A stretch of 64,000 nucleotides of DNA from Patescibacteria group bacterium (GTDB taxonomy: Bacteria; Patescibacteriota; Minisyncoccia; Phycocordibacterales; Phycocordibacteraceae): assembly GCA_038064495.1 (NCBI GenBank), contig JBBTSZ010000002.1:216934-280933 (forward strand). Direction: 5' to 3'. The position numbers and the translations under genes are program-made. Below, one piece after another: positions 20,751-61,572 of the stretch. Under the pieces are notes generated by a model. The model was not told where the DNA came from and made no database searches. It saw only the letters and a program-made list of their open reading frames with translations. The first letter of the stretch is position 1; every line of letters starts with the position of its first letter.

Positions 20751-21266
20751 ATGCAAATTAAATGGCAAGAAGCCACCTCACTCATTCCACTTTTGCTCTT
20801 AGGTTTATGTAGCTTTACGTTTTCGGCTCAGGCTGCGGCAACAATTCCAGGCGTAATCTTTGAGAATGATCCTCCAGCGAAGACAACGGTTCTTCTGCCG
20901 TCTGCATCAACTCCCGCACCAACAAAACCAGCTACGCCAGGTGCAACTGGAGCCACTTCTCCGGGCGCGGCAACTGGCCAGACATCAACTCAGTCTGGTT
21001 CGCCAACAGGTCTCCAAAATCCGCTTCAGGCAGGAACACTTGAAGAGCTTCTTACTGCGATTCTTAAGGGCGTTGTAGCGATTGGTGCCATATTCCTTAC
21101 CTTTATGATTATCTATGTCGGCTTCCTCTTTGTAGCTGCGCGCGGGAACGAAGAAAAAATACGTGATGCGCGTCAAGCACTTGTCTGGACCGTGATTGGA
21201 GGACTCCTTTTGCTTGGTGCTGAAGCCATAAGTCTGGTCATTCAGTCTACGGCGCAAACGTTATGA
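20751..21266 (+). CDS. pilin-like paralogue P1: signal peptide, Pro/Thr/Ala-rich linker, two TM helices (VirB2/TrbC-like topology)
   Basis: Signal peptide plus the conserved two-TM module shared with the next four ORFs (..F..GF..V...GNEEK.R....L.W..IG). Confidence 0.55.
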   Translation: MQIKWQEATSLIPLLLLGLCSFTFSAQAAATIPGVIFENDPPAKTTVLLPSASTPAPTKPATPGATGATSPGAATGQTSTQSGSPTGLQNPLQAGTLEELLTAILKGVVAIGAIFLTFMIIYVGFLFVAARGNEEKIRDARQALVWTVIGGLLLLGAEAISLVIQSTAQTL

Positions 21267-21589
21267 GCCCCTTCACAAGACTGTTTTCGCTGCTTCCCGC
21301 ATTTCTGTTCGTACTCATTCCACTGCACAGCGCTTTTGCGGCAACTCCCACGTTTGAAGAGTGGGTAAATAACACTGCAGTTGGATTCGTTGATTCCTAT
21401 GTGATACCGCTCCTCTACGCAGTTGCGTTCCTTGTTTTTATGTTCGGTGCCTTTCGCTACTTCTTTACCGGCGGGGAGGAAAACAGGGAAAAGGGACGTG
21501 CTTTTCTCCTTTGGTCCATTATCGGCATGGTCGCAATATTTTCCGTGTGGGGCGTCGTGAATCTACTCCTTACTGCTCTTCCGCAGTAA
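21263..21589 (+). CDS. pilin-like paralogue P2
   Basis: AFLVFMFGAFRYFFTGGEENREKGRAFLLWSIIGMVAIFSVWGVVNLL module; signal peptide; 4-nt overlap with P1. Confidence 0.6.
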   Translation: MSPFTRLFSLLPAFLFVLIPLHSAFAATPTFEEWVNNTAVGFVDSYVIPLLYAVAFLVFMFGAFRYFFTGGEENREKGRAFLLWSIIGMVAIFSVWGVVNLLLTALPQ

Positions 21590-21638
21590 CGTGTATAACT
21601 GCTTGATTCACGCCAAGCGCTTGCTAGGCTTCATCTAT

Positions 21639-22319
21639 ATGACACATTTCCGTACCCTACTCACCGGCATTTCAGCTGTGGCGCTTCTGTTTATCGTTAA
21701 CGTTCCGCATGCCCTTGCACAAACAGCAACCAATAGCTCAGCACCCATAGACCAGCTGGGTCAATTCTTACAACAGTTCATTCGCTTTTTTGACCTCTAT
21801 CTGGTCCCGCTCATATTTGCACTCGCCTTCATCGTGTTCTTGTGGGGCGTCTATCGGTACCTCATTCTTGGTGCTGACAACGAGGAGAAACGTCAGGAGG
21901 GTCAAAAGTTCATCATGTATGGCCTTATCGGTTTCTTCATCATGATTTCAATTTGGGGGATTGTTAATTTACTTGTCGGTTCGCTTGGTTTCGGAAATGA
22001 TCAGCGTCCCAATCTTCCGACCTTCGGTTCACCCTCTCAATCAGGAAGTAACGGTTCAAAGATTCTTCCAAGCAGTCCGTCAGTAAACACGACTGGATCT
22101 GCCAATACGAGCGGAGGTTCTGTTACCCCGGGAAACACGTCTACAGACTGTCGTTCTGACGGTGTGTGTCCTGCTAACACCGTTTGTTCGTTTAGCGGTA
22201 CGCAAGCAGGGCAATGTATAACCACGAACCCTCAAGATTGTCGTCTTCCGAACACAGCCTGTCCTTCAGGATACGTGTGTAACGCAAACAATGGTCTCTG
22301 TAAATTGAATTCAATATAG
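21639..22319 (+). CDS. pilin-like paralogue P3 with a C-terminal Ser/Thr/Gly linker and an 8-Cys extracellular domain
   Basis: Module AFIVFLWGVYRYLILGADNEEKRQEGQKFIMYGLIGFFIMISIWGIVNLL, then CRSDGVCPANTVCSFSGTQAGQCITTNPQDCRLPNTACPSGYVCNANNGLC. Confidence 0.6.
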   Translation: MTHFRTLLTGISAVALLFIVNVPHALAQTATNSSAPIDQLGQFLQQFIRFFDLYLVPLIFALAFIVFLWGVYRYLILGADNEEKRQEGQKFIMYGLIGFFIMISIWGIVNLLVGSLGFGNDQRPNLPTFGSPSQSGSNGSKILPSSPSVNTTGSANTSGGSVTPGNTSTDCRSDGVCPANTVCSFSGTQAGQCITTNPQDCRLPNTACPSGYVCNANNGLCKLNSI

Positions 22320-22415
22320 AAACTGTTGTCCACAAAGCGAAAACGAGCCAATTGACGGAGGGGTGAGAATCGCTATGCTTAGAGGGAACCTACGTGGTTA
22401 TACTAATTACCTTAT

Positions 22416-22775
22416 ATGAAGAAACTCGGCTACACTCTCGCAGCTTTTGCCACGCCTTTTCTTGCGTTTGCACAGGTGCAAACCATTAATGACGCAGGTA
22501 GAATCGTGATTGATATCATTAACAATGTTGCGGTACCTATCGTATTCGCACTCGCCTTCATCGTCTTTATCTGGGGTATCTTTCGATACTTCGTTCAAGG
22601 AGGACACGACGAGGAAAAACGTGAAGACGGTAAGCAGCTCATGCTCTGGGGCCTCATTGGTTTCTTTGTCATGGTCTCGGTGTGGGGCTTAATCCACATC
22701 CTCATTGGAACCTTCAACTTGAACCCAGCTATTCCAAATTATCCAACCGCACCGTATACCACGAAAGGACGCTAG
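22416..22775 (+). CDS. pilin-like paralogue P4
   Basis: AFIVFIWGIFRYFVQGGHDEEKREDGKQLMLWGLIGFFVMVSVWGLIHIL; signal peptide ending AFA-QVQ. Confidence 0.6.
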   Translation: MKKLGYTLAAFATPFLAFAQVQTINDAGRIVIDIINNVAVPIVFALAFIVFIWGIFRYFVQGGHDEEKREDGKQLMLWGLIGFFVMVSVWGLIHILIGTFNLNPAIPNYPTAPYTTKGR

Positions 22776-22797
22776 TTTCCTATAGCACTCTCCTTGG

Positions 22798-22826
22798 AAA
22801 CCCGCGCAATCCTTGCGCGGGTTTCT
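22798..22826 (+). terminator. hairpin AAACCCGCGCAA-tcc-TTGCGCGGGTTT after P4
   Basis: Perfect 12-bp stem. Confidence 0.5.
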
Positions 22827-22841
22827 GCTATGATAGAGAGC

Positions 22842-23099
22842 ATGAATACAGAATTCAACGCATTTCTCGGTAAAGTTGAACAGGCTATTTTGAACCCACT
22901 CATCACGCTTTTGATACTGGCCGCGTTCGTGCTCTTTGTATATGGGGTCGTTGAATTCATTGCTGGAGCGGGAAATGATGAAAAAAGAAAGATAGGTCAG
23001 CAACATATGATATGGGGCTTCATTGGACTTGCCATTATGTTTGGTGCTAAAGGCATTGTGGCGCTTCTTGCAAGTACGTTTGGCGTTCCGGTCCCCTAG
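22842..23099 (+). CDS. pilin-like paralogue P5 (most divergent; no obvious cleavable signal)
   Basis: AAFVLFVYGVVEFIAGAGNDEKRKIGQQHMIWGFIGLAIMFG module. Confidence 0.5.
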   Translation: MNTEFNAFLGKVEQAILNPLITLLILAAFVLFVYGVVEFIAGAGNDEKRKIGQQHMIWGFIGLAIMFGAKGIVALLASTFGVPVP

Positions 23100-34033: not shown

Positions 34034-34741
34034 ATGGAAACTGAACAAAACGAGCGCCAGGAACTGGAGCAGCTTTCTCGCGAACTTGTTGATGAGGCAG
34101 TGCTTGTTGAATACAAACAGACCTACGATAACTATCACATCTCGTTTATTCCGAGCATGCTTGGAGCCGTACTCGTGTTCTCCGGGAATCTAGTCTACGG
34201 AAAACGTCCTTCCTATATGAAGTTTCGTGCGGTGGAGGTTATCGCACGAGTTCCCTATCATTCATGGAGCTCAGCGGCATACACACTCCTCACCATGTTC
34301 TACAGCAACGAGCAGAAAGCACTGAAGCTGTCTGAAGTCTCGCAATTCTCACGCATTGCGCAGGATAACGAAACCATGCACGTGGTGGTCATTTCTAAAC
34401 TAGCCTGTCTGGAACACCGCGTGAATTTTTTCGTACACACCCTTATTCCGATGATTTTTGCGTTCTTCTACTTCTGGGCTTCCTACATTTTGTATTTGAT
34501 TAACCGAAAGTATTCACTTGAGCTCAATTATTGTTTTGAGCAACACGCGTTTGATCAATACAATCAGTTTCTGAAGGAGAACGAGGAAGCGCTCAAAGGG
34601 AAGCCGATAGAGAGTGAATTTCTTTCGTGGTACGGCAGAAATCCCACCAACCAGTACGATTTCTTTATGGGCGTCCGGAATGACGAAATCATCCATCGTA
34701 ATATGTCGGCGCATGTGCTTCAGGGTCTGAAGAAGAAGTAG
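34034..34741 (+). CDS. alternative-oxidase-like membrane-associated diiron carboxylate protein (AOX/PTOX family)
   Basis: Four spaced iron-ligand motifs: AVEVIARVP, QDNETMHVVV (E..H), LELNYCFEQHA (E..H), RNDEIIHRNMS (DE..H); hydrophobic mid-region. Confidence 0.55.
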   Translation: METEQNERQELEQLSRELVDEAVLVEYKQTYDNYHISFIPSMLGAVLVFSGNLVYGKRPSYMKFRAVEVIARVPYHSWSSAAYTLLTMFYSNEQKALKLSEVSQFSRIAQDNETMHVVVISKLACLEHRVNFFVHTLIPMIFAFFYFWASYILYLINRKYSLELNYCFEQHAFDQYNQFLKENEEALKGKPIESEFLSWYGRNPTNQYDFFMGVRNDEIIHRNMSAHVLQGLKKK

Positions 34742-36589: not shown

Positions 36590-37588
36590 ATGCGGAGATA
36601 TCTCCTTCCAGCGCTCCTTGCGCTCTGTATAGTGTTTCTGCCGAGTATTGCGTCAGCAGAGTCTAATGCAGGAATCTTCGCGCCAGTCATTTCTGACGTC
36701 TGCACGTGTCCAGGCACTGCTCCTGGTTTTGGATGCATTCTAGACACCATACAGAACCTTCTTAACCTCGGCGTCTCACTTTCAGCGATGCTTGCGGTGC
36801 TCATCATTGCCTACGCAGGTACCCTTCTCATCTTTAACCCAACCAAACCGGAGTACCGGACACAAGCGAAAGGCATGCTCGCGAATGTTGCCATAGGCAT
36901 GGTCATCGTACTCGCCTCCTGGCTCATCGTTGATTTTGTGATGAAGATTGTCTACAACCCCGGTGCGGTATTTTCGGGAAATGTTATTGGACCTTGGAAC
37001 GATATTCTTGGTGGTGGCGAGGCCTGTATTGTTGCTCAACAACTCGACACCATCTTTGATGGAAATCTAGTGACGACGCCGACGACCGATGTGGCTGCAA
37101 GTGGAGGTGTACTCACCAACTCTGGAAAAGGAGCTTGTAATGCAATAACGGTTGCACAAAGTGCCGCCGCAGGTGGAGCACGCATGTCCACACAGGAGGC
37201 GAACATTCTTGCCTGCGTGGCAGGTCCGGAAAGCCAATGTGGTGCAGTGTTACAAAACTATAATTGGAACGGCGCAAAAAGCTATCCACCTTCAACCGCG
37301 TACGGGCCCTTTCAGATTACACTCAAAGGAAACAGCGGCTGTTTTGAGAATGCAGCTTGCTATCAAGCCGCCGGTGTTAGTGGATCGCTAAACTGTGATG
37401 CAGCGTTTGATTCAAAAGGCTATGCAATTCCCGGTGCCAGGCTTGAACAGTGCAAGCGTGCCGCCGCGAACCTCACGTGTAGTTCGGTTGCTGCAGATTG
37501 TGTATATCGTAAGCAAGGTGCAAGTGCGTGGACAGCTGATAAAAGTAGTTCAAAGCAACAGGCGTGCATCTCTGGTAATGGAGGCTAA
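36590..37588 (+). CDS. pilin-like N-terminal module (signal peptide, CxCPG...GC, two TM helices) fused to a Cys-rich C-terminal domain with a possible lysozyme/lytic-transglycosylase-like motif
   Basis: The N-domain is paralogous to that of the 38156..39100 ORF. The C-domain has ...QEANILACVAGPESQCGAV...STAYGPFQI (E-S ... A.G..Q resembles the SLT/lysozyme-like signature). Confidence 0.5.
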   Translation: MRRYLLPALLALCIVFLPSIASAESNAGIFAPVISDVCTCPGTAPGFGCILDTIQNLLNLGVSLSAMLAVLIIAYAGTLLIFNPTKPEYRTQAKGMLANVAIGMVIVLASWLIVDFVMKIVYNPGAVFSGNVIGPWNDILGGGEACIVAQQLDTIFDGNLVTTPTTDVAASGGVLTNSGKGACNAITVAQSAAAGGARMSTQEANILACVAGPESQCGAVLQNYNWNGAKSYPPSTAYGPFQITLKGNSGCFENAACYQAAGVSGSLNCDAAFDSKGYAIPGARLEQCKRAAANLTCSSVAADCVYRKQGASAWTADKSSSKQQACISGNGG

Positions 37589-37597
37589 ACTACAACT

Positions 37598-38152
37598 ATG
37601 AAAAAGGCGCTCATCATCATTTCAGTCATACTCGTGCTTTTGCTTGTTGCCGGACTTGGTTACTATTTCTATACCCATACAAAGACCCCACAGGCGCCTG
37701 ATAGTACAAATACATTTCCGATCGGTGATATGAATCAAGGAGGTAGTTCAACCATGGTAATACCTGCTGAGGATGGAGGTAGCATCTCCACATTGGATTT
37801 CATACATAACAACGTCACGTTTGAAGATCCTGCGAATAAGGGCGACTACTATCTTGCCGGAAGTAATGACATTTGTAATCCAGACGGTACCTGTCCAAAA
37901 GCAGGCACGTCTACCCATTTCAATATTCTGTATTTCTCAGACTCTGGTTCTTTCGTCATAAGTCTTAATGAAGAACCACTTGGTCAGATTCGCAGAGAAG
38001 CAGAAGAGTATCTCATACAAACGCTTGGTATAACGCAAGAGCAAATGTGTAAACTAAACTACACCATCGGTACGACGTCATACATCAACGACACATTTGG
38101 AGGTGAGAATTTAGGATTCAGTTTCTGTCCCGGAGCAGTGAAGCTCCCTTAG
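37598..38152 (+). CDS. membrane-anchored secreted hypothetical protein
   Basis: N-terminal TM; 9-nt spacing after the previous gene; sits between two paralogous fusion genes. Confidence 0.4.
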   Translation: MKKALIIISVILVLLLVAGLGYYFYTHTKTPQAPDSTNTFPIGDMNQGGSSTMVIPAEDGGSISTLDFIHNNVTFEDPANKGDYYLAGSNDICNPDGTCPKAGTSTHFNILYFSDSGSFVISLNEEPLGQIRREAEEYLIQTLGITQEQMCKLNYTIGTTSYINDTFGGENLGFSFCPGAVKLP

Positions 38153-38155
38153 ACT

Positions 38156-39100
38156 ATGTGTAGATTCCTCATCCCACTTCTCGTCACGGTCTTCCTCATA
38201 GGAATACCACTCATGGCACAGGCTGCCGATACCAGTTTCTTTGGCCCTATCGTTCCGACACAATGTAATTGTCCGGGTGAAGCCCCGGGTCTTGGCTGCA
38301 TTCTTGAAAGCCTCCGGCTTTTGATGAACCTCATCATTTCCATCGCCTGTGTGTTCCTTACGCTCATCATTGCGTACGGTGGCCTCCTTTTCATGATGGG
38401 TGCGACGAACCCCTCGCAACGCGAGACCGGTAGGAACGTGCTCATCAACGGTTTCATCGGTATTGTCATCGTCTTGTCGGCCTGGCTCCTGGTTGATTTC
38501 ATTATGAAGCGTCTGTATAACTCAAACTCTTTCGGACCGTGGAACTCTATTTTGCTCGGTCAAGGAGAGCTCTGTCTGCATAAACAACAAACCGGAGAAA
38601 TATTTACTGGAAATATTGTAGTAACTCCAACCACAAACCCTGGTTCTGCGGGTGGGGCAGGTGGAAGTGGTGGGAGTGGTGCAAATTGTCCTGCCGCTGA
38701 CCCTGGAAGCATGGTTAACTTTCCAGCTTCAGCAACCTCAGGTGCGGCCGAGAAGGCAACTCCTACAACCGTGCAGAATTTCCTTGCCATGCGAGCTGCT
38801 GCACTTAAAGAAGGTATTGATTTAAAAGTAACGGATGGATATCGATCTGAGTCCGAACAAATAGCTCTGTGGGATAGATATGGGCACGACACCAGCCAGG
38901 CAGCTCGACCTTGTACGCTCGGAGGTGGTGGGTCAAATCACAACTCTGGAACGGCGGTTGACCTGACCGTCGGTTGTGCCAAGACGGATAGTTCGTGCAA
39001 CAGTCCACAGTACCGCTGGTTGAAGGCAAATGGTTCCAAGTGGAATTTTAGAAACGCACTTCCAACTGATACGGTGCACTGGTCGCCAAGTGGTACCTAA
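38156..39100 (+). CDS. pilin-like N-terminal module fused to an M15/VanY-type D,D-peptidase (LAS metallopeptidase) domain
   Basis: The N-domain shares CNCPGEAPGLGCILESL...IIAYGG...GIVIVLSAWLLVDFIMK..YN...FGPWN with the 36590 ORF. The C-domain has SNHNSGTAVDL (SxHxxGxAxD) and TVHWSPSG, preceded by a Gly-rich linker. Confidence 0.6.
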   Translation: MCRFLIPLLVTVFLIGIPLMAQAADTSFFGPIVPTQCNCPGEAPGLGCILESLRLLMNLIISIACVFLTLIIAYGGLLFMMGATNPSQRETGRNVLINGFIGIVIVLSAWLLVDFIMKRLYNSNSFGPWNSILLGQGELCLHKQQTGEIFTGNIVVTPTTNPGSAGGAGGSGGSGANCPAADPGSMVNFPASATSGAAEKATPTTVQNFLAMRAAALKEGIDLKVTDGYRSESEQIALWDRYGHDTSQAARPCTLGGGGSNHNSGTAVDLTVGCAKTDSSCNSPQYRWLKANGSKWNFRNALPTDTVHWSPSGT

Positions 39101-53693: not shown

Positions 53694-53767
53694 TGGGAGA
53701 TCGTCTAATGGTAGGACAGCGGCCTTTGAAGCCGTGAATCTAGGTTCGATCCCTAGTCTCCCAGCCA
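53694..53767 (+). tRNA. tRNA-Gln (anticodon TTG), U1:A72, CCA encoded
   Basis: TGGGAGATCGTCTAATGGTAGGAC...stem GCGGC loop CTTTGAA...GGTTCGATCCCTAGTCTCCCAGCCA. Confidence 0.8.
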
Positions 53768-53825: not shown

Positions 53826-54272
53826 TTAAGCAGCAACGATTCTAGAACCGACGCTTTTGAGATGTGCACGAGTGGCATCGGAAATAGTTCCGACAGTCCC
53901 GCCCTCGATTGCAAGTGGGAACTGCTTGATGAGTTCGACGAGTCGAGTCGGGTCAGTACACCGATTGATTTTGTGCCAGCCTTTCTTTTTCGGGACGGAT
54001 GCACCACCAGTGATATGCGGACCCTTGTAGCCGATAGAGACATGGGTCCCACGGTCAGAAACAGATGTCAGCTCCGCGCGGTCATAGCCGTAGACCTTTC
54101 CGTTTGGATGCTCAGAGTCGACCCAGATGGTTGCGCCTGGCTCAAACTTTGCGAGTTCTTCTGCAGGAATGCATTCAAAGAGAGCCCCGATATCCTTGTT
54201 CCTGAAATCCGTCCAGTGGTTGCTGTATATGACTTCGCTCGGAAGTTCTAGGTGAGGTGTTTGGTCTGTCAT
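53826..54272 (-). CDS. hypothetical protein
   Basis: ORF; a hairpin CGCCCGGAG...CTCCGGGCG lies downstream. Confidence 0.4.
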   Translation of the reverse strand: MTDQTPHLELPSEVIYSNHWTDFRNKDIGALFECIPAEELAKFEPGATIWVDSEHPNGKVYGYDRAELTSVSDRGTHVSIGYKGPHITGGASVPKKKGWHKINRCTDPTRLVELIKQFPLAIEGGTVGTISDATRAHLKSVGSRIVAA

Positions 54273-54498
54273 CGCTACACTCCATGTTTGAGATTTCAAT
54301 TCCTGTTGCGGGTGCTACAGGGCGTCTGCGTTGTCTATAACACAGTTATTTGAGTAAGTAAAAAGGTTCCAATATAGCCCCAGACTGTCAGCTAACTTTA
54401 GTATGCAAAATAAAAAACCTGTCCGTAAAGACAGGTATTTTTGGCCAATGCCCGATAAGAACTTCCTTGTACAAACTACTTACAATTTACTTGTGAAC

Positions 54499-54858
54499 TT
54501 AATCTCTATCATTTAGCCAAAGTTTAAAGGCTTTCATGCGAGATGTCAGATTCTTCATTTCCCACCGAAAATAATCATTGGAGCCGGTTTCAAAGGGATT
54601 CTTCCACTCAGGATGGTCAAATTCAAAAATACCTCTTAAAGAACGCTCCGTGTCCGTTTTCTTACCAGCCTCCTCAAAGTCTTTGTGGAGGGTATTCTTC
54701 CAGCCGGAAGACGGTCTTCCCGCGCGTATTTCACGAAGCATCATTCTAGCTGCAAGCTTGGCGTTTTGCCTAGCTACTTGATTCTTAAATGCGGCGGTTT
54801 CTGTGAAATCAGGGTTCGACTCCGGAAGATTAGGATCTTTGGACTCTTCATCGCTCAT
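54499..54858 (-). CDS. hypothetical protein (119 aa)
   Basis: ORF only. Confidence 0.4.
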   Translation of the reverse strand: MSDEESKDPNLPESNPDFTETAAFKNQVARQNAKLAARMMLREIRAGRPSSGWKNTLHKDFEEAGKKTDTERSLRGIFEFDHPEWKNPFETGSNDYFRWEMKNLTSRMKAFKLWLNDRD

Positions 54859-54979
54859 ATCGGACCTCCTTATTTGTCCAAGATATTTATATCACAAAAA
54901 CTTGGTTTGTCTATGTTACTGAGAATAAATACGTTCCAACATCGTCCCAGACTGCCAGCAATGATGCTATTGTTTTTTA

Positions 54980-55336
54980 ATGCTCAAACACAACCTCTAC
55001 GCCACACCCTTTGCAAAGGTCTATCCGTACTACGTTGCTAAGGCGGAGAGAAAAGGACGCATAAAAGCGGAAGTTGATGAACTCATTCGTTGGTTAACGG
55101 GATACACCGAGAAAGGATTTGAGACACAACTGAAGAAGCAAACAAGCTTTGAAGACTTCTATACCAAGGCTCCAAAGATGAACCCTTCACGCAAACTCAT
55201 CACCGGTGTGGTGTGCGGTATACGGGTGGAAGAAATTGACGACCCGCTCATGAAGGAGATTCGATATTTGGATAAATTGATTGATGAGCTCGCAAAAGGA
55301 AGGGCGATGGAGAAAATCAAACGGGAAGCAACGTAA
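54980..55336 (+). CDS. DUF2200-family conserved protein
   Basis: [25 protein letters not shown]...[31 protein letters not shown] matches my recollection of DUF2200. Confidence 0.5.
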
Positions 55337-55438
55337 ATCGGTGAACGTAGTGACAATAAAAAAGGTTCCAACATTGACCCGGACTCTAATAAAAAGGGAC
55401 GAGCACTAGGCTCGTCCCCTTCAAAAAATCCAGTAACT

Positions 55439-55747
55439 CTAGCCGGCGTTTGAGAACTCCATCATTCCTGTTCTTTTCTCAGCATTGTATTCAACGAAGA
55501 TGAAATTGAAGGGAGGAAGTCTGGGTTCTCTCCAGGCCGACGATGACAAAATTCCACCAAGCTTATAATTTGGACCTTGGCAAGTGACGAATGCAAAGTT
55601 CAAAATCTGCAAACGAAACAGAATCGGGCCACATTCTGGAAGAAAGATGGTGAAAGTAGCAGTAGCACCAAGATTGCGAGCTGTAAAGGCGTGCTCTAAA
55701 TCTCGCACGCCAGGACCATTCGTGATATGTAGCTTGGGATAAGTCAT
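55439..55747 (-). CDS. hypothetical protein (102 aa)
   Basis: ORF only. Confidence 0.35.
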   Translation of the reverse strand: MTYPKLHITNGPGVRDLEHAFTARNLGATATFTIFLPECGPILFRLQILNFAFVTCQGPNYKLGGILSSSAWREPRLPPFNFIFVEYNAEKRTGMMEFSNAG

Positions 55748-55890
55748 AAAGACTTCCTATACGTAAAGAGCATTACGTTAAACATAAAGAGTAACGCAAG
55801 CTATCAGACCACCTGACAGCTAAGACACACTACGTTATAGCTTTAGTAAGTCAAACAGTACGTTCGTCTCCGGTTTGGTACACTGTTCGT

Positions 55891-56283
55891 ATGGAAAAAG
55901 TGCCAGCAGATTTAAAAAAAGCACTTAGTGCTAAACCCTCAGTAGAAGCAAAATGGAAGGACCTCACACCAATTGGGCGGAGGGACTTCATCACCTGGAT
56001 AGAAGGAGCTAAGCAACCGAAAACACGCAAGCGCCGTATAGAAGTAACCCGTAGCAAACTTCTGAGCGGACAGAGGCGTCCGTGCTGTTACGCTGTCGTA
56101 CCAATGAATCTCTACAAAGCACTCGGCACTTCACCCAAGGCAAAAGCGACGTGGAAGACGCTTACCCCGGACGCACGTCGCGACTTTGTGGCTTGGATAG
56201 ACGAAGCGAAAGACTCAGATACGAAGGGACTTCGGATAGATAAAACGTGCGTACTCTTGGCTGCGGGGAAACGCCGTCCTTAA
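55891..56283 (+). CDS. YdeI/OmpD-associated family protein (internal duplication)
   Basis: Two repeats of KW(K)DLTP..RRDF..WI..AK....R.RRI. Confidence 0.5.
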   Translation: MEKVPADLKKALSAKPSVEAKWKDLTPIGRRDFITWIEGAKQPKTRKRRIEVTRSKLLSGQRRPCCYAVVPMNLYKALGTSPKAKATWKTLTPDARRDFVAWIDEAKDSDTKGLRIDKTCVLLAAGKRRP

Positions 56284-57116
56284 GAACCTTTCGTGCGGTA
56301 GTGCTTCAGATAGGCAACGATGATGAAGCTGATGATAACGAGCAGTGACCAGGACGTTATCTTTCCAAAACCCACAAGCGTCCACACGTGAAACTGGTCA
56401 GGATATTTCCATGCGCCGAAATAGGTGGAGATATTCTCCGCAATCCATATAAAAAGAGCAATGAGAACAAACGCAAGATTCATAGGCAGCCATCTTCGCT
56501 CCCGAACGACGGTGAAGTAGACGCGTGCTCTGAAAAATACAACAAAGACCAAGAACATAAGCACATAGCGGAAGTCGTACAGAAAGTGATGCGTGAAGAA
56601 ATTTATATAAATGAGCACAGAGAGCACGAGGAGTAGGAAATAGTTGGGAGCATGCGCAAGCGAGAGCTCCATATACTTCCACGACAGGCTGATATAGCTC
56701 CCGACTGCCGCATACATGAAGCCGCTGAAGAGTGGCACGGTCGCTATTTTGAAAAAGCCTTCCTCTGGGTAACTCCACGAACCAATAGCCGGATTCGTTT
56801 TATACAGCTCAAGCATGAAGCCAATGATATGAAAAAGGAATATAACCTTAATCTCGTGGAAGGTTTCAAGTTTGAATACATACAGCACGACTTGAATAAG
56901 AATCGCTGAAAGGAAGAGAAAATCGTAGCGGGGAAGTCCAAATAAGGGGAGGTAGTTGGATAGAAATAAAACTACGAAAAAAGAGCCTGCGAATATGCAG
57001 GCTCTTGCCTGCTTCATTCCAAATGTCCAGAATTCATGGCCTACATTCCTGAGAGCGCGGAGCATAGCTATTAAAACAGTATAAAGCTGAATGTGGTTCC
57101 ACATATATTCAACCAC
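56280..57116 (-). CDS. polytopic membrane protein (DUF817-like)
   Basis: 7-8 hydrophobic helices; Phe/Tyr-rich. Confidence 0.5.
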   Translation of the reverse strand: MVEYMWNHIQLYTVLIAMLRALRNVGHEFWTFGMKQARACIFAGSFFVVLFLSNYLPLFGLPRYDFLFLSAILIQVVLYVFKLETFHEIKVIFLFHIIGFMLELYKTNPAIGSWSYPEEGFFKIATVPLFSGFMYAAVGSYISLSWKYMELSLAHAPNYFLLLVLSVLIYINFFTHHFLYDFRYVLMFLVFVVFFRARVYFTVVRERRWLPMNLAFVLIALFIWIAENISTYFGAWKYPDQFHVWTLVGFGKITSWSLLVIISFIIVAYLKHYRTKGS

Positions 57117-57177
57117 AAAAAGAAAACCGCCCTCTCGTTGAAGCGAAAGTTTGGTTTTCGTTTCGCCGAGTGGGCGG

Positions 57178-57591
57178 TTATAGATTCAGTGTCGCGTGGA
57201 TTTCATCGAAATGAGCCAGCAATTTTTCAGCTTCCTCAAATGAGGCTTGCTTACACAAGACAGCTTGTTTCAAGCGAACTCTTTGCGGAATCAGATACTC
57301 AGTGACAAGCTCTGGGGACGTCAGTCTCATCATTTGGCGCGACGTGCACGAGTGTTCGTTGATATCAAACTCGTACCATTGCTCCTGTTCCCTCATGTCG
57401 TCAAGTGAACGGATACGGAACTTTTGATTTTCCGTATCAACTTCAGTGATGATGGCAGGGCAATCCCATCCAGACATGCTGGTGATACCGCTGTACCACA
57501 GAAGTCGCCCAACCTGCACATGTTTCCCAAGGAGAGGTTCTTCAATCAAAATTGCTGAACCGTCAACCGGATTTCTAACGGTGAGTGTCAT
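57178..57591 (-). CDS. hypothetical protein (137 aa)
   Basis: ORF only. Confidence 0.4.
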   Translation of the reverse strand: MTLTVRNPVDGSAILIEEPLLGKHVQVGRLLWYSGITSMSGWDCPAIITEVDTENQKFRIRSLDDMREQEQWYEFDINEHSCTSRQMMRLTSPELVTEYLIPQRVRLKQAVLCKQASFEEAEKLLAHFDEIHATLNL

Positions 57592-57696
57592 GTGTGTTCC
57601 TTTCCGTATCGCACATCTGAACGCACTGTTATATAGAAAATGTCGATTGTCAAATAAATACAGCGTATTGGTGTCCGCTGTAACAAATAAGGTCGC

Positions 57697-58260
57697 TCAC
57701 GACGGAGCGACCTCAAGGTAAAACGGCAGTATTGGCTTACAAAGTTGTTCAAAAGCACGAAAGGGTTTGACAAGCTCGCCTCGAACGACGCGGCATCCTT
57801 CGTACCGACCACCGCCAGCACTGTAGGCGATGGCCTGCCTACCATTCCATTCGATACTCTTGAAATCATATTTCGATAGAAACGCACGGGTAGCTTCAAG
57901 AATATTGTCCGGCACGATTCGTACATCTTCAGCCATTTCCGCAACCTGTTCAAGGAACGTAGTGCGGACACGTCGAGCATCCCGGGAGGCACGAGTCGTG
58001 AAAAGATTAAAATTCTTGCCATAGATGAAGAGTACGTCTCTGTCAACAAAACGTTCACAGGTATGGAATCGCATGCTCGGAATCGTTTCCAATAAGGTCT
58101 TCAAAGATTCGTCACTTGGCAGAAGTGGTGTTGCCCGGGGCGGATAGATGGCATACAGATACAAGAATCGCTTCCGTATCTTTCCCCAAGCTTTTTTCAC
58201 ATACCGGTACTCTGCACGCTCGGGACGTGCCGCTATTCGCGCAATTTTCTCGTGTCGCAT
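57697..58260 (-). CDS. hypothetical protein (187 aa)
   Basis: ORF only. Confidence 0.4.
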   Translation of the reverse strand: MRHEKIARIAARPERAEYRYVKKAWGKIRKRFLYLYAIYPPRATPLLPSDESLKTLLETIPSMRFHTCERFVDRDVLFIYGKNFNLFTTRASRDARRVRTTFLEQVAEMAEDVRIVPDNILEATRAFLSKYDFKSIEWNGRQAIAYSAGGGRYEGCRVVRGELVKPFRAFEQLCKPILPFYLEVAPS

Positions 58261-58376
58261 GGCACATCTCCTATGTTGTAAAAGGTCAGGTTCGTGGCAA
58301 GCATACTCCTCGGTTTTCTAATGGCAAGAAAGAACCGCCGAGCGAAAGCTCGGCGGTCTTGATTTTGCGGCGCGCG

Positions 58377-58736
58377 TCACAGGAAACGAAGCTCGCCAGG
58401 ATAACTTTGACCAACACTGAGTTGAATAATCCAACCTTGTTCAGTATGTTGAAAGCCGGTTATCGGGATTCCTGAGAAGAATTTTTCTGCGACAGACAAT
58501 TTGAGAAACCCATCATCAGAAAGACTTACCTCGCTGATTGTTCCAGTCCACTTATTTTCTCTCTCGCTGAGTATTCGGATGAATTCGTACCTTCTTCCCT
58601 TCAGTTGCTCGTACCCACCTGACACCCCGGCTTTTTGAAGTGCGCAGATCATACGTTCGGCTGCTTGCCGAATGCTTTCAATGTCACTTGGCGATTTCGA
58701 AACCCCGCCTATCGGGGTACGTATACCGGTATCCAT
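58377..58736 (-). CDS. hypothetical protein (119 aa)
   Basis: ORF only. Confidence 0.4.
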   Translation of the reverse strand: MDTGIRTPIGGVSKSPSDIESIRQAAERMICALQKAGVSGGYEQLKGRRYEFIRILSERENKWTGTISEVSLSDDGFLKLSVAEKFFSGIPITGFQHTEQGWIIQLSVGQSYPGELRFL

Positions 58737-58822
58737 TTCTTCCTCCTTAAAGTTTCCTTTGGCAAGCTACCACAATTTAAAAAAGGTCGCGATATGTGGA
58801 AAGCGCCTGCTATGATATCTGC

Positions 58823-59347
58823 ATGACAACTAAGATGCCGGTACCCATCGTTGAGAGCGCAGAAAAAAGGAGAAATACGATACGTAGCTTTAAGGCCAAG
58901 GCGAATGATAAACGCACTACCTCTGACAAGATTGCGGACCTCCTTACCGAATCATTCGGTACGGTTGCGTTCCTCGTCATTAACGCATTCTTCTTCGGAG
59001 GATGGATTTTATGGAATACCGGGAATATTCCAGGACTCACTCCTATAGATCCCTTCCCGTTTGGACTCCTCACCATGGTCGTCTCACTTGAGGCCATTTT
59101 TCTCGCCATCATCGTCCTTATTTCACAAAACAGGGAAGCAAGAATTGCGGAGCTTCGTGAAGAAGTAGAACTCTACATCAACACCTATGCTGAGAATGAA
59201 ATTACGAAAGCCATCTACCTCATGACCCTCATCCTTAAAAAAGACGGCATAGATATTTCCAAGGACGAAGACCTGAAGGAAATGCTTGAAAACATTGATA
59301 GCGAAGTGATTGAACAGGAACTAGAGAAGCAGCTAGCACAATTCTAG
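58823..59347 (+). CDS. DUF1003-like membrane protein
   Basis: Two TMs (TVAFLVINAFFFGGWILW; LLTMVVSLEAIFLAIIVL) followed by a coiled-coil tail. Confidence 0.5.
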   Translation: MTTKMPVPIVESAEKRRNTIRSFKAKANDKRTTSDKIADLLTESFGTVAFLVINAFFFGGWILWNTGNIPGLTPIDPFPFGLLTMVVSLEAIFLAIIVLISQNREARIAELREEVELYINTYAENEITKAIYLMTLILKKDGIDISKDEDLKEMLENIDSEVIEQELEKQLAQF

Positions 59348-59439
59348 TTACGGGAACGTACTGCTTGACATAGTCAGCATTTCATAATCTAATCTACATT
59401 AGACCACATCGCGTGGCAGATTTATTTGGAGAGCAGAAA

Positions 59440-59586
59440 TGTCTCAGGGTTCACATTCCACCTTCTCGTGGCGCATGTTTTTTGGCGTTGCCCTTGTCGG
59501 ATTGTTGTTGGTCGGGCTGTACAACCAGATCGCCATCAACCTGGAAAATATGAAAACTAATGCTGCGGAAGCAGCTGAACAATAAG
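59440..59586 (+). CDS. small single-TM protein (48 aa), speculative
   Basis: RBS ggagag; TM GVALVGLLLVGL; followed by a terminator. Conflicts with a junk-like minus-strand ORF. Confidence 0.3.
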
Positions 59587-59634
59587 CCAAAACAACGTAA
59601 GATATGAGTTGTGGCTCCCAAGGCCAAAAAACCT

Positions 59635-59665
59635 GTCCCCACCCAAGCGGTGGGGACTTTTGTAT
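59635..59665 (+). terminator. hairpin GTCCCCACC-caagc-GGTGGGGAC plus TTTTGTAT
   Basis: Perfect 9-bp stem plus T tract. Confidence 0.65.
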
Positions 59666-59672
59666 ACAAAAA

Positions 59673-59692
59673 GGCCCCGCGGATGCGGGGCC
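59673..59692 (-). terminator. hairpin GGCCCCGC-ggat-GCGGGGCC with a T-run on the minus strand, after the 59706 gene
   Basis: Perfect 8-bp stem. Confidence 0.55.
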
Positions 59693-59705
59693 TGATAGGC
59701 GAAAG

Positions 59706-60005
59706 TTATGCTGCCACTTGCGCGAGATGGATTGGATACGCTTTTCCGACAAGCTCAAGTGCCTGCTCTTCAGTAAACCCTGCGCCCACATGAGCAAGAA
59801 AGAGTTTCCTTTGTCGGCATGCGTATTCCTTCAAGAATCGCTGGTGGCGGGTCTCAGGTGTTACAAGCGCTTCAAGAAGCGCTGCCTCTACCCAGGCAAC
59901 CTGGCTCACACCACGATTCTTTGCGGCTTCGCGCGTTTGTGTCACCACATCACTTGAAATACCGCGCATCGTCCATTGGCACGTTCCGTCAGATTCCGTT
60001 TTCAT
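59706..60005 (-). CDS. hypothetical protein (99 aa)
   Basis: ORF only. Confidence 0.4.
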   Translation of the reverse strand: MKTESDGTCQWTMRGISSDVVTQTREAAKNRGVSQVAWVEAALLEALVTPETRHQRFLKEYACRQRKLFLAHVGAGFTEEQALELVGKAYPIHLAQVAA

Positions 60006-60152
60006 GTTCAGCTCCTCTCGGGTCTAAGCGGAACCATAGCACGGCACATGAGTCACTCCAATTGAGCCGTGCTTCCCACTTTTGGCCGGATACGGTAGGG
60101 TGTCTCCAGATTTACTGTACAAATTACACTCAAGCAAAGAAGGGAATCGAAG

Positions 60153-61472
60153 ATGAACGTTGACGCAGCGACTGCCGATCGGCAGACAGCAAAGTACCGT
60201 CTCGGCCGGATGTTGACGGAAGGAAAGACAAAGAAGCTTCATGAAGCGAAGGACAAGCCCGGGATTGTTATTGTAATTTCCAAAGACGACATTACTGCCG
60301 GCGACGGCAAGAAGCACGATATTATTGTAGGCAAAGCTAACCTTGCGACCGAAACGACCTGCAACGTTTTTGAATTGCTCAAGGCGTGCGATATTCCAAT
60401 CGCTTACATTGAGCGCGATAACGTAAACTCGTTTATTGCCTATCACACTGACATGCTTCCGTACGAAGTCGTCGTCAGGCGTGAGGCGCACGGCTCATAC
60501 CTGAAAAGCTATCCGCATTTGCAGAAGGGACATCTTTTCCAAAAGCTCGTCGTGCAGTTCTTCCTGAAAACGAAGGACCGTCGCTGGAAAGAACACACGC
60601 TTGTCTGCGACGACCCCCTGATGCTGCATCGGGAGGGTGCGGGCAAGATTGAGCTCTATAATCCTGCGGAGTCACTCCGAGGCCAGAAACCCTTCCTCAT
60701 CCTCGACGAGATGGAAGTGTTCGGGTATGCCGAGGAATGGCATTGCTTCAAGGAAATGCAATCAATTGCTACCAAGACGTTCCTCGTGCTCGAGCGAGCC
60801 TGGGAGCTCGAAGGCGGCAAGCTGGTCGACTTCAAGGTTGAATTTGGTTTTGACCCGACGGGAAACCTGGTTCTCTCAGATGTTATCGACAATGACTCGT
60901 GGCGCGTGGTTGAAGACGGCGCGTATCTCGACAAGCAAGTCTATCGAGATGGTGGAGACATCAAGGAGGTGGCAAACAAGTACGAGCGCGTCGCCAACAT
61001 CACCAGTCGTTTTCGCCTCCCGAGTCAGCGCATCATCCTATGGTGCGGCTCTGAATCAGATGTCACCAAGCCATTTCATGATGCGCTTGGGGGCTTCCGA
61101 GATTTACTGACCGAGGTGGTGTGCTCAGCACATAAGGAGCCGCAAGCTGCAGTCTCTATTATTCAGAGCACGGTGCATGCGTATCCAAACTCGGTTGTGA
61201 TTGCCTACATCGGCAGAAGCAACGGGGCTGGCCCCATCCTGTCAGCGCAATCAACGGTACCGGTCATTACGGTGCCTGCGAGTGTGAAGGACTTTCCGGA
61301 TGATGTGTGGTCTTCACTTCGTGCACCAAGTAAGGTGCCGGTGATGACCGTGCTTGAGCCGACGAATGCCGTGCTTGCTACACTGCAAATTCTTTCGGCT
61401 CGAAATCCTCGCATCTATGCGCATTTGCGCCAAGAAGTGGAAACTCGTTTGATTAACACTATCCCACTGTAG
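60153..61472 (+). CDS. bifunctional SAICAR synthetase (PurC-like) / AIR carboxylase (PurE-like) fusion, PAICS-like arrangement
   Basis: The N-domain LTEGKTKKLHEA...GKANLATETTC..FELL resembles PurC. The C-domain RIILWCGSESD...VCSAHKEP...AYIGRSNGAGPILSAQSTVPVITVP resembles PurE. Confidence 0.65.
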   Translation: MNVDAATADRQTAKYRLGRMLTEGKTKKLHEAKDKPGIVIVISKDDITAGDGKKHDIIVGKANLATETTCNVFELLKACDIPIAYIERDNVNSFIAYHTDMLPYEVVVRREAHGSYLKSYPHLQKGHLFQKLVVQFFLKTKDRRWKEHTLVCDDPLMLHREGAGKIELYNPAESLRGQKPFLILDEMEVFGYAEEWHCFKEMQSIATKTFLVLERAWELEGGKLVDFKVEFGFDPTGNLVLSDVIDNDSWRVVEDGAYLDKQVYRDGGDIKEVANKYERVANITSRFRLPSQRIILWCGSESDVTKPFHDALGGFRDLLTEVVCSAHKEPQAAVSIIQSTVHAYPNSVVIAYIGRSNGAGPILSAQSTVPVITVPASVKDFPDDVWSSLRAPSKVPVMTVLEPTNAVLATLQILSARNPRIYAHLRQEVETRLINTIPL

Positions 61473-61572
61473 TGTTTGAAGACCTTGCCCGCCGCGTTAT
61501 GCGGCGGGTTTCTTTTTACCAATGAAAAAGCCCTGACAGAGAGCCGAGGCTTTCTCATCAGAGCTGTGCGAA

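What the first reader, a model, noticed from the sequence alone, without database searches (positions are those of the whole stretch)
60153..61472. PurC-PurE fusion (animal PAICS-like gene architecture) standing alone, with no other purine-biosynthesis genes nearby
A single 439-aa ORF combines a SAICAR-synthetase-like N-domain with an AIR-carboxylase-like C-domain (…WCGSESD…SAHKEP…GRSNGAGPILSAQSTVPVITVP). This is the same order as the bifunctional PAICS enzyme of metazoa, an arrangement I recall as being unusual in bacteria. No purK, purB or other pur gene is in the 64 kb. The gene sits in a tRNA-Gln-proximal stretch of unknown small genes, 2 kb upstream of a yjjX-like ITPase. It could be a remnant or salvage-adapted pathway fragment, or an HGT-acquired gene.
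Basis: partly seen in the sequence, partly recalled or inferred. Interest (0 to 1): 0.6.

Follow-up and report, generated by a model that had tools for sequence, protein, structure and literature searches.

The report
Bacterial PAICS-type purine enzyme gene
This is an intact gene for a two-in-one purine-synthesis enzyme of the type textbooks assign to animals, sitting alone in the genome of an ultra-small groundwater bacterium; the type is rare in bacteria but already recognised by databases, so the find is a mildly interesting new member, not a new kind of thing.

Summary
ORF 60153..61472 (+) encodes a 439-aa protein with an N-terminal SAICAR synthetase domain and a C-terminal PurE domain. 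It is colinear with human and silkworm PAICS in sequence (E 1e-55 to 1e-59, 34% identity) and in predicted fold. The PurE half carries class II (direct AIR carboxylase) motifs, so no PurK is needed. Nearly all catalytic residues listed for human PAICS are conserved.

It is not a frameshift artefact. The identical ORF occurs on at least 6 contigs, and the same architecture occurs in many phyla. The window is from a Patescibacteria (CPR) groundwater MAG. No other pur gene lies within about 84 kb.

In relatives the gene sits in purine clusters: purH-purB-PAICS-purF in a closed Berkelbacteria genome, purB-PAICS in other CPR, and full pur clusters in Dependentiae. Its role in purine synthesis is therefore well supported.

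The family is patchy and prone to horizontal transfer. The closest relatives (65-68%) are high-GC Alphaproteobacteria, and in CPR genomes the gene is a GC3 outlier. Here it is an old resident, syntenic with a distant Parcubacteria genome, and not a decaying remnant.

I could not test whether this genome holds the rest of the pathway. Verdict: new member of a known kind, low-to-moderate interest.

The parts
60153..61472 (+). CDS of the 439-aa PAICS-type bifunctional enzyme (SAICAR synthetase + class II PurE/AIR carboxylase), stop codon included
   Evidence: ORF list. Pfam PF01259 + PF00731. Full-length match to PAICS structures.
60213..60998 (+). SAICAR synthetase (PurC) domain, residues about 21-282. 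Carries EGKTK (23-27), E105, R109/R110, K139, the invariant DDP (153-155), K228, E230, D243, D248-S-W-R251, K261 and R265. Has two family-specific insertions (about 143-152 and 166-192).
   Evidence: hhalign against canonical PurC: probability 100%, E 4.6e-42.
61038..61436 (+). Class II PurE (AIR carboxylase) domain, residues about 296-428. Carries G299-S-E-S-D303, S325-A-H327-K328 and G354-R-S-N-G358-A-G-P.
   Evidence: aligned with E. coli class I PurE and the human AIRc domain.
60137..60145 (+). Purine-rich Shine-Dalgarno-like stretch AAGAAGGGA, 7 nt before the ATG
   Evidence: Read directly from the sequence. Function is inferred.
61487..61519 (+). Intrinsic-terminator-like hairpin (10-bp stem, 8 G-C pairs) plus a T-run, 15 nt after the stop codon. 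Together with the opposite-strand neighbours it makes the gene monocistronic.
53694..53767 (+). tRNA-Gln(ttg). Context only. It is a conserved neighbour of the PAICS gene in the syntenic Parcubacteria locus L034.
53826..59969 (.). Context only: about 6.1 kb holding 11 small genes. Four match only Pfam families of uncharacterised or poorly characterised function (DUF2200, OmdA, DUF817, DUF1003); the other seven have no hit. The stretch is absent from L034 and is a lineage-specific variable insert between tRNA-Gln and the PAICS gene.
   Evidence: Lower GC of 0.445-0.475.

Best explanation
The ORF encodes a genuine bacterial PAICS, a single polypeptide that carries out steps 6 and 7 of de novo purine synthesis.

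Mechanism. The C-terminal class II PurE domain carboxylates AIR directly with CO2 to give CAIR. This needs no ATP, no N5-CAIR intermediate and no PurK. The N-terminal SAICAR synthetase domain then ligates CAIR to aspartate, using ATP/Mg2+, to give SAICAR. PurB then takes SAICAR onward.

What is shown:
- domain identity and order;
- the class II signature;
- conservation of nearly all catalytic and ligand-binding residues;
- a PAICS-like predicted fold;
- the monocistronic layout;
- membership of a patchily distributed bacterial family that lies in pur operons in other small-genome bacteria.

What is inferred:
- The enzyme is active.
- This Patescibacterium encodes the remaining pur genes elsewhere on its chromosome of at least 565 kb (my estimate about 0.6).
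- The lineage acquired the gene by horizontal transfer from a higher-GC, probably proteobacterial, donor. This happened long ago, before the split from the Parcubacteria relative L034.
For: Identity and structure:
- Pfam SAICAR_synt + AIRC.
- PAICS of B. mori and human are the top PDB sequence hits over both halves. Identity to human PAICS is 34% across 430 columns, E 2e-64.
- The AF2 model (pLDDT 81, pTM 0.84) finds human PAICS 6yb8 first (E 3.6e-30, 442 columns). Standalone PurC and then PurE follow.
- Class II motifs SAHK and GRSNGAGP stand where E. coli has SAHR and AGGAAHLPG.
- I mapped the active-site residues listed for human PAICS in PMC9376930 onto the protein. Nearly all are identical. 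The Mg-bridging Asp maps to an invariant DDP.

Genomic association in relatives:
- purH-purB-PAICS-purF in the closed Berkelbacteria genome CP011213.
- purB-PAICS in L100 and L054, and PAICS/purH-N/purB in L038.
- In Dependentiae L058 it lies between purD, guaA, two purP genes and purF, purB, purM, purT, with no other purC or purE in that cluster.

Retention:
- Microsynteny DprA-SerRS-X-Dus-DnaX...PAICS/tRNA-Gln with L034. The neighbours are 25-64% identical (housekeeping genes 48-64%) and PAICS is 59% identical.

Horizontal transfer:
- The CPR copies are polyphyletic in the tree.
- The nearest relatives (65-68%) lie on 62-67% GC contigs with proteobacterial contexts.
- Window PAICS GC3 is 0.609, the highest of 39 genes (core mean 0.489, sd 0.046).
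- The GC3 excess is much stronger for PAICS, and for adjacent purB/purH, in other CPR loci.

Literature: some Patescibacteria classes are reported to make IMP from PRPP (PMC9166423).
Against: - No other pur gene lies in about 84 kb around the gene, so the source of AIR and the fate of SAICAR in this organism are unseen.
- Most Patescibacteria are reported to lack de novo nucleotide synthesis (PMC12455944; bioRxiv 2026.09.16.751625).
- The protein scores below NCBIfam's curated cut-offs for canonical purC (85 vs 190 bits) and purE (74 vs 150 bits).
- No member of the bacterial family has been characterised biochemically, as far as the searched literature shows.
- The NJ tree does not place the window copy as sister to the syntenic L034 copy. 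The history at this locus may therefore be more complex than simple vertical descent.
Confidence: 0.8

Rival explanations
1. Orphan mid-pathway enzyme. The genome lacks the AIR-forming steps. The PAICS, perhaps with PurB/PurH elsewhere, works on intermediates obtained from a host or the environment (AIR, AIR riboside, CAIR). This would be a late-pathway salvage module in a symbiont.
For: - No pur neighbour in about 84 kb.
- CPR bacteria are generally described as lacking nucleotide synthesis.
- In several CPR genomes only late genes (purB, purH) travel with PAICS as a GC-rich, apparently transferred block.
Against: - No transporter or kinase for such intermediates lies next to the gene.
- Berkelbacteria has purF in the same operon, and Dependentiae have purF/D/M/L alongside. 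In those lineages the family therefore works within full pathways.
- Pur genes are often dispersed, and only about 15% of the 565-kb contig was seen.
Confidence: 0.15
2. Non-functional remnant of a lost purine pathway (a decaying gene).
For: Isolated position. Surrounded by small unknown ORFs in a variable region.
Against: - The 439-codon frame is intact, and the sequence is identical on at least 6 contigs.
- Nearly all mapped catalytic residues are conserved.
- It is more conserved (59%) than most of its syntenic housekeeping neighbours (DprA 48%, DnaX 50%, Dus 52%; only SerRS, 64%, is higher) relative to L034.
- It has its own SD-like site and a strong terminator.
- Streamlined genomes purge useless genes.
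Confidence: 0.03
3. Assembly, binning or frameshift artefact. Either two adjacent genes were fused by a sequencing error, or a proteobacterial fragment was mis-joined into a Patescibacteria contig.
For: The closest relatives are proteobacterial.
Against: - The same ORF occurs in independent assemblies inside contigs of 397 kb and 565 kb.
- GC (0.525) and codon usage lie within the range of the window's genes.
- It is syntenic with another Patescibacteria genome.
- The fused architecture is universal in the family, and the linker aligns without a gap.
Confidence: 0.01
4. Recent horizontal acquisition from Alphaproteobacteria, possibly on the tRNA-Gln-adjacent island.
For: - 65-68% identity to Xanthobacteraceae-type proteins, against 40-60% to other CPR copies.
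- Highest GC3 in the window.
- tRNA genes are common integration sites.
Against: - 65% identity is not recent.
- Codon-usage likelihood is typical of the window's genes.
- The region has no integrase, no att-like repeat of the tRNA end and no phage-family hits.
- No viral carriers were found.
- PAICS, tRNA-Gln and DnaX are already neighbours in L034, which lacks the island.
Confidence: 0.1

Closest known systems
Metazoan PAICS (human P22234, PDB 2H31/6YB8; Bombyx mori PDB 4JA0): bifunctional AIR carboxylase / SAICAR synthetase
   Same: - Same domain order (SAICARs N-terminal, class II PurE C-terminal).
- Colinear over the whole length: 34% identity, top sequence hit and top fold hit.
- Same active-site residues and class II motifs.
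   Different: - Bacterial host.
- Two insertions in the SAICARs domain, about 10 and about 25 residues.
- N43 of human is D here, as in B. mori.
- Human PAICS is roughly equidistant (26-39%, mostly 33-38%) from all bacterial members, which form their own clade.
- Octamer formation, channelling and activity are untested.
Treponema denticola PurE (PDB 3RG8/3RGG): standalone bacterial class II PurE (AIR carboxylase)
   Same: Class II chemistry is expected: direct CO2 addition without PurK. Shares the SAHK-type motif class. Its fold matches the C-half (TMt 0.71).
   Different: It is a standalone protein of about 159 aa. It is only weakly similar in sequence (E 5.9e-6), far less than the PAICS AIRc domain.
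Canonical bacterial PurK + class I PurE + PurC (E. coli b0522, b0523, b2476)
   Same: Same net conversion of AIR to SAICAR. The PurC half aligns to canonical PurC with hhalign probability 100%.
   Different: - Three separate proteins.
- Class I PurE is an N5-CAIR mutase with SAHR/AGGAAHLPG motifs.
- An extra ATP is spent by PurK.
- The window protein falls below NCBIfam purC and purE equivalog cut-offs.
- No purK lies in the window.
Bacterial PAICS-like proteins in public databases, e.g. Berkelbacteria GW2011_GWE1_39_12 AKM82468.1, and JGI entries named 'phosphoribosylaminoimidazole carboxylase / phosphoribosylaminoimidazole-succinocarboxamide synthase'
   Same: Same family and architecture. 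The window protein itself is already deposited at NCBI as a Patescibacteria MAG protein.
   Different: The window copy stands alone, whereas the Berkelbacteria copy sits in purH-purB-PAICS-purF. None appears to have been studied experimentally.

Membership tests
PAICS (bifunctional EC 4.1.1.21 + 6.3.2.6) | N-terminal SAICAR synthetase domain and C-terminal PurE domain on one chain, colinear with solved PAICS | tested here: met
   Pfam. phmmer against PDB: 4ja0 E 1.2e-59, 2h31 E 4.7e-55, both halves matched. BLASTP 34% identity over 430 columns. Foldseek top hit 6yb8 with 442 aligned columns.
PAICS (bifunctional EC 4.1.1.21 + 6.3.2.6) | Class II PurE signature (SAHK; G-R-S-N-G-x-G-P loop) instead of class I (SAHR; G-G-A-A-H-L-P-G) | tested here: met
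   Window has S325-A-H-K328 and G354-R-S-N-G-A-G-P361. E. coli PurE has SAHR and AGGAAHLPG in the same columns. Which motif marks which class comes partly from my own knowledge of the PurE literature.
PAICS (bifunctional EC 4.1.1.21 + 6.3.2.6) | Conserved active-site residues of both sites, as listed for human PAICS in PMC9376930 | tested here: met
   - SAICARs site: G24 K25 T26 K27, T48 A49 G50, E105, V107, R109, R110, K139, K228, E230, D243, D248 S249 W250 R251, K261, R265.
- AIRc site: G299 S300 S302 D303, S325 H327 K328, G354 R355 S356 N357 G358.
- The Mg-bridging Asp (human D137) is placed on D142 by BLAST/HMMER but on the invariant D153-D154-P155 by profile alignment to canonical PurC. 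An Asp is present either way.
- A few listed positions differ: N43 to D, M190 to F, T275 to E and a few hydrophobic positions. Human D133 has no clear counterpart.
PAICS (bifunctional EC 4.1.1.21 + 6.3.2.6) | Catalytic activity (AIR + CO2 to CAIR; CAIR + Asp + ATP to SAICAR) and octameric assembly | not testable with these tools
   Needs enzymology and structure work. Only a monomer model was made.
PAICS (bifunctional EC 4.1.1.21 + 6.3.2.6) | Operates within the purine pathway (genomic association with other pur genes) | tested here: inconclusive
   Not met locally: no pur gene in about 84 kb. Met in relatives: Berkelbacteria purH-purB-PAICS-purF; L100, L054 and L038 with purB; Dependentiae full clusters. 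The whole-genome inventory could not be obtained.
Canonical bacterial PurC (NCBIfam TIGR00081 equivalog) | Score at or above the curated cut-off (189.9 bits) | tested here: not met
   85.4 bits. It is a homologous domain but lies outside the canonical equivalog.
Class I PurE, N5-CAIR mutase (NCBIfam TIGR01162) | Score at or above the cut-off (149.6 bits), class I motifs, and a PurK partner | tested here: not met
   73.9 bits. Motifs are class II. No PurK match in the window.
LarB-type PurE homologues (nicotinic acid adenine dinucleotide carboxylase) | PurE-like domain used outside purine synthesis, with LarC/LarE neighbours and no PurC domain | tested here: not met
   The C-half's best matches are PAICS AIRc domains (111.6 bits for the second stretch). 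It keeps the AIR-binding residues and is fused to PurC. No Lar genes appear in the Pfam annotation of the neighbourhood. No LarB-specific model was run.

The most novel reading that the evidence does not exclude
The Patescibacterium has no AIR-forming enzymes. It keeps this laterally acquired PAICS, with late enzymes encoded elsewhere, as a salvage module that turns host-derived mid-pathway intermediates (AIR, its riboside, or CAIR) into purines. This would be cross-feeding of a purine-pathway intermediate in an episymbiosis.

A second reading, also not excluded, is that this bacterial clade and the eukaryotic PAICS descend from one fusion event exchanged between the domains.
Probability: 0.12. 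Interest if true: 0.6.

Novelty: new member of a known kind. Interest (0 to 1): 0.3.

Why it matters
Reviews still describe the fused class II PurE-PurC enzyme as a eukaryotic, especially animal, trait. They describe PurK plus class I PurE plus PurC as the bacterial solution.

This window adds a clean example of a bacterial PAICS family. The family is widespread in soil and groundwater metagenomes and moves between phyla. In ultra-small CPR bacteria it often arrives together with purB and purH as a compositionally foreign block. That bears on two questions: how genome-reduced symbionts patch nucleotide metabolism by gene transfer, and whether 'CPR cannot make nucleotides' holds for all lineages.

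The enzyme would save one ATP per purine and depend on CO2, which may suit CO2-rich groundwater and soil.

For the specific gene the practical value is modest. Pipelines already annotate it correctly, and the chemistry is well known.

Tried and rejected
- **Frameshift or fusion artefact.** Rejected. The ORF is identical in several assemblies and the architecture is universal in the family.
- **Integrative island at tRNA-Gln carrying the gene.** I found no att-like repeat of the tRNA end, no integrase and no PHROG hits. Synteny with L034 shows the gene is outside the variable insert.
- **Phage-borne auxiliary gene.** No relative turned up in the viral contig collection. The scan used query-specific patterns, so it reaches only close relatives.
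- **Riboswitch control (purine or ZTP).** Nothing upstream. Only sub-threshold hits on terminator hairpins.
- **Conserved gene neighbourhood across all 59 family loci.** None exists. The most frequent neighbour cluster occurs in 15 loci, and only in Alphaproteobacteria.
- **Whole-genome inventory of pur genes.** Not obtainable. Look-ups reach only 10 kb beyond the window, and the genome is not in the species-representative collection; the best hit there is 66% identical. I did not run it, because only the 120 best hits are listed and the odds of seeing this genome's copy were poor.
- **Literature.** Four literature searches turned up no description of bacterial PAICS, and a fifth on PAICS and horizontal transfer returned no papers. 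The first was swamped by the ordinary word 'pure'.
- **The 336-400 aa ATP-grasp gene at the window start as a hidden PurK/PurT/PurP.** No tblastn match to any of these. Pfam matches are weak and Ddl-like.
Full report
**1. The observation**

The ORF at 60153..61472 (+) is real. It is 439 aa long and starts with ATG.
- Pfam finds SAICAR_synt (E 2.6e-40) from residue 21 and AIRC/PurE (E 3.1e-20) at 296-428.
- NCBIfam sees the same two halves, but below the curated cut-offs of the canonical bacterial purC and purE equivalogs (85 vs 190 bits; 74 vs 150 bits).
- Against all PDB sequences the best hits are the bifunctional PAICS of Bombyx mori (4ja0, E 1.2e-59) and human (2h31, E 4.7e-55). Each matches both halves in the same order. 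Standalone PurC (1kut, E 8e-26) and standalone PurE (about 1e-6) score far lower.
- BLASTP against human PAICS gives 34% identity over 430 columns (E 2e-64).
- An AlphaFold2 model built on 25 family members (pLDDT 81, pTM 0.84) finds human PAICS 6yb8 first in the PDB (E 3.6e-30, 442 aligned columns, TM 0.65/0.68). B. mori PAICS follows, then standalone PurC (TMt 0.8-0.89), then PurE (TMt 0.63-0.71).

**2. Not an artefact, and where it comes from**

- The identical protein is deposited at NCBI as a 'Patescibacteria group bacterium' MAG protein. It is called on at least 6 contigs, including ENA ERZ1292619 (Hainich groundwater, 397 kb), a Logan assembly, and an NCBI contig of 565,823 bp.
- The window has typical CPR content: T4SS-pilin-like gene clusters, FtsA/FtsZ, tRNA synthetases and many small unknown genes.
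- The gene's GC (0.525) and synonymous-codon likelihood (-1.136, against a core of -1.148 +/- 0.056) fit the window.

**3. Class and catalytic competence**

Alignment with E. coli PurE (class I) and the human AIRc domain shows class II motifs. The window has SAHK and (Y)IGRSNGAGP where E. coli has SAHR and AGGAAHLPG.

I mapped the residues used to model the two human active sites (PMC9376930) onto the window protein and 47 bacterial relatives.
- SAICARs site: G24-K-T-K27, T48-A-G50, E105, V107, R109/R110, K139, K228, E230, D243, D248-S-W-R251, K261 and R265 are identical, and invariant or nearly invariant in the family.
- AIRc site: G299, S300, S302, D303, S325, H327 (the general base), K328 and G354-R-S-N-G358 are identical.
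- Human N43 is D here, as in B. mori. A few other listed positions differ conservatively (M190 to F, T275 to E, a few hydrophobics), and human D133 has no clear counterpart.
- The Mg-bridging Asp (human D137) is aligned ambiguously. BLAST and HMMER put it on D142. A profile alignment to canonical PurC (hhalign, probability 100%) puts the canonical 'HDP' on the family's invariant D153-D154-P155.
- The family has two insertions in the PurC domain, at about residues 143-152 and 166-192.

Because class II PurE adds CO2 directly, the absence of purK is expected and is not an anomaly.

**4. Local anatomy**

- A purine-rich SD-like AAGAAGGGA lies 7 nt before the ATG.
- A strong hairpin plus T-run (61487-61519) follows the stop codon.
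- The flanking genes are on the opposite strand, so the gene is monocistronic.
- No riboswitch or other Rfam element lies upstream.
- No other pur gene was found in about 84 kb. This rests on Pfam annotation of called genes from about -10 kb to +74 kb and on tblastn of 15 E. coli purine and nucleotide enzymes plus PurP against the window.

**5. The family elsewhere**

Size and spread:
- At least 2951 clusters at 90% identity match. All 120 listed have both domains, and JGI names them as the bifunctional enzyme.
- In a library of 1.84 billion representatives at 50% identity, only 447 reach E<=1e-30. That count includes animal PAICS (a fish protein at E 1e-57) and standalone PurC of about 280 aa from the same subfamily. 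The family is real but small.
- Among GTDB species representatives, 114 stretches encode a relative of the query; the more distant of these are canonical standalone PurC genes rather than fusions. The fused copies occur in many Xanthobacteraceae/Rhodoplanes/Pseudolabrys (62-67% identity), other Patescibacteria (40-60%), Dependentiae, Chlamydiae, Verrucomicrobia, Myxococcales/Bdellovibrionales and a Nanoarchaeia bin.

Genomic context:
- The neighbourhood is not conserved overall.
- In small-genome lineages the gene often lies among pur genes.
  - Dependentiae L058 has guaB-purD-guaA-purP-purP-[PAICS]-purF-purB-purM-purT. L042 and L041 are similar.
  - Liptonbacteria L038 has [PAICS]-purH(N-terminal part)-purB. 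Minisyncoccia L054 has purB-[PAICS].
  - The closed Berkelbacteria genome CP011213 has purH-purB-[PAICS]-purF.
  - A further CPR-like contig, L100, has purB-[PAICS] with a 23-bp gap.
- Of about ten CPR-like contexts seen, four have pur neighbours and six, including the window, do not (L030, L034, L044, L045, L101).

This is solid guilt-by-association evidence that the family serves purine synthesis.

**6. History**

Evidence for horizontal transfer:
- A bootstrapped NJ tree of 48 bacterial copies rooted on human PAICS shows the Patescibacteria copies scattered. L054 is basal. L044 groups with Dependentiae. L034 groups with Verrucomicrobiia. L030 and L038 sit together. The window copy is unplaced inside a 94%-supported clade dominated by proteobacteria.
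- Human PAICS is about equally distant (26-39%, mostly 33-38%) from all of them.
- The closest relatives of the window protein (65-68%) lie on 62-67% GC contigs with free-living proteobacterial neighbours such as TctC, sulfite reductase and CysG.
- Composition agrees. In CPR loci the PAICS gene, and purB/purH when adjacent, are strong GC3 outliers.
  - L100: 0.74-0.80, against 0.26-0.49 for most neighbours (one nearby radical-SAM gene reaches 0.66).
  - Berkelbacteria: 0.52-0.59, against about 0.30.
  - L101: 0.44, against about 0.18 for the housekeeping neighbours (one unannotated neighbour reaches 0.38).
- In the window the excess is milder but real: GC3 0.609, the highest of 39 genes (core 0.489 +/- 0.046, maximum 0.572).

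Evidence that the gene is an old resident here:
- The window and the Parcubacteria MAG contig L034 share the order DprA-SerRS-X-Dus-DnaX...PAICS and tRNA-Gln(ttg).
- Protein identities are 48, 64, 25, 52 and 50% for the neighbours and 59% for PAICS.
- In L034 the tRNA lies just 3' of PAICS. In the window it lies 6.4 kb 5' of it.
- The roughly 6.1 kb of small unknown genes in between is absent from L034. It has lower GC, no integrase, no att repeat and no phage-family hits.

So the 'tRNA-Gln-proximal stretch' is a local variable insert, and the PAICS gene belongs to the conserved backbone. Retention of an intact, well-conserved gene across that much divergence argues against a remnant.

**7. 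What remains open**

I could not inventory the rest of the genome. Published surveys say most Patescibacteria lack de novo purine synthesis. They also say Paceibacteria, Microgenomatia and Gracilibacteria can make IMP from PRPP (PMC9166423), and some Saccharimonadia have near-complete pathways.

I put about 0.6 on a dispersed complete pathway here and about 0.15 on a true orphan or late-pathway module. A remnant or an artefact gets very little.

**8. Comparison with the known, and verdict**

The protein meets every testable defining feature of PAICS: architecture, class II signature, active-site residues and fold. It fails the curated cut-offs of the canonical bacterial PurC and class I PurE families. 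Activity and oligomeric state were not testable.

Reviews present the fused enzyme as eukaryotic and PurK/PurE/PurC as bacterial. I found no paper describing the bacterial family. Annotation pipelines nevertheless already name these proteins correctly.

It is therefore a new member of a known kind. The side observations, namely the horizontal-transfer pattern and the GC-rich purB/PAICS/purH blocks in CPR genomes, are more interesting than the gene itself. Interest 0.3.

Noticed in passing
L098 6746-11329; L100 8581-11311; L101 10001-11365; L038 10001-13685; L030 1719-3041: In several CPR genomes the PAICS-like gene, and adjacent purB/purH when present, have much higher GC3 than their flanking housekeeping genes. 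Examples: 0.74-0.80 against 0.26-0.49 for most neighbours in L100, and 0.52-0.59 against about 0.30 in the closed Berkelbacteria genome. This suggests that a late-purine-pathway block has been laterally acquired repeatedly from high-GC donors.
   Followed up: partly
window 54360-54386, 54927-54953, 55359-55385: Three copies of a 27-nt direct repeat (AAAAAGGTTCCAAYAT..CCC.GACT, 81-85% identity to the reference copy). They sit in or next to intergenic spots of the small-ORF stretch after tRNA-Gln. Function unknown.
   Followed up: no
window 34034-34741 (+): A 235-aa gene matching Pfam PF01786 (alternative oxidase, AOX) lies directly after ClpB. An AOX is unexpected in a fermentative, genome-reduced Patescibacterium. 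It also has the second-highest GC3 in the window (0.572).
   Followed up: no
window 20751-23099 and 36590-39100: Two clusters of small genes matching PF18895 (T4SS_pilin). One of these genes is fused or adjacent to a VanY peptidase domain. This is typical CPR surface-appendage gene content.
   Followed up: no
L038 10001-11290: The Liptonbacteria copy of the fusion has a degenerate AIR carboxylase loop (CDRNDGAS in place of GRSNGAGP). It also lacks an 11-residue segment (DVWSSLRAPSK) that is conserved elsewhere. Its PurE half may be inactive even though it sits next to purH-N and purB.
   Followed up: no
L042 4938-7066; L058 7693-9833: Dependentiae pur clusters contain two tandem PurP-like ATP-grasp genes (the archaeal-type formate-dependent FAICAR synthetase), and no PurH match was detected in the fetched locus. 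The PAICS-type gene is the only purC/purE seen there.
   Followed up: partly
L060 10001-10876; L055 10001-10780; L061 10001-10773; many 270-300 aa hits: Standalone PurC proteins of the same subfamily exist without the PurE domain. They are 43-50% identical to residues about 17-290 of the window protein. The fusion has therefore been made or broken within this subfamily.
   Followed up: no
L095 10562-13513 (about 160 bases to 3.1 kb beyond the window end): A FecR-domain gene is followed by a CHASE2-guanylate/adenylate cyclase gene, immediately downstream of the YjjX-type NTPase. It looks like a small signalling module of unknown role.
   Followed up: no
window 7-1017 (+), extending upstream (400 aa in L094 11475-12677): An ATP-grasp protein with only faint Pfam matches (ATP-grasp_3, Ddl C-terminus). 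It is not similar to PurK, PurT, PurD or PurP. Function unclear.
   Followed up: partly
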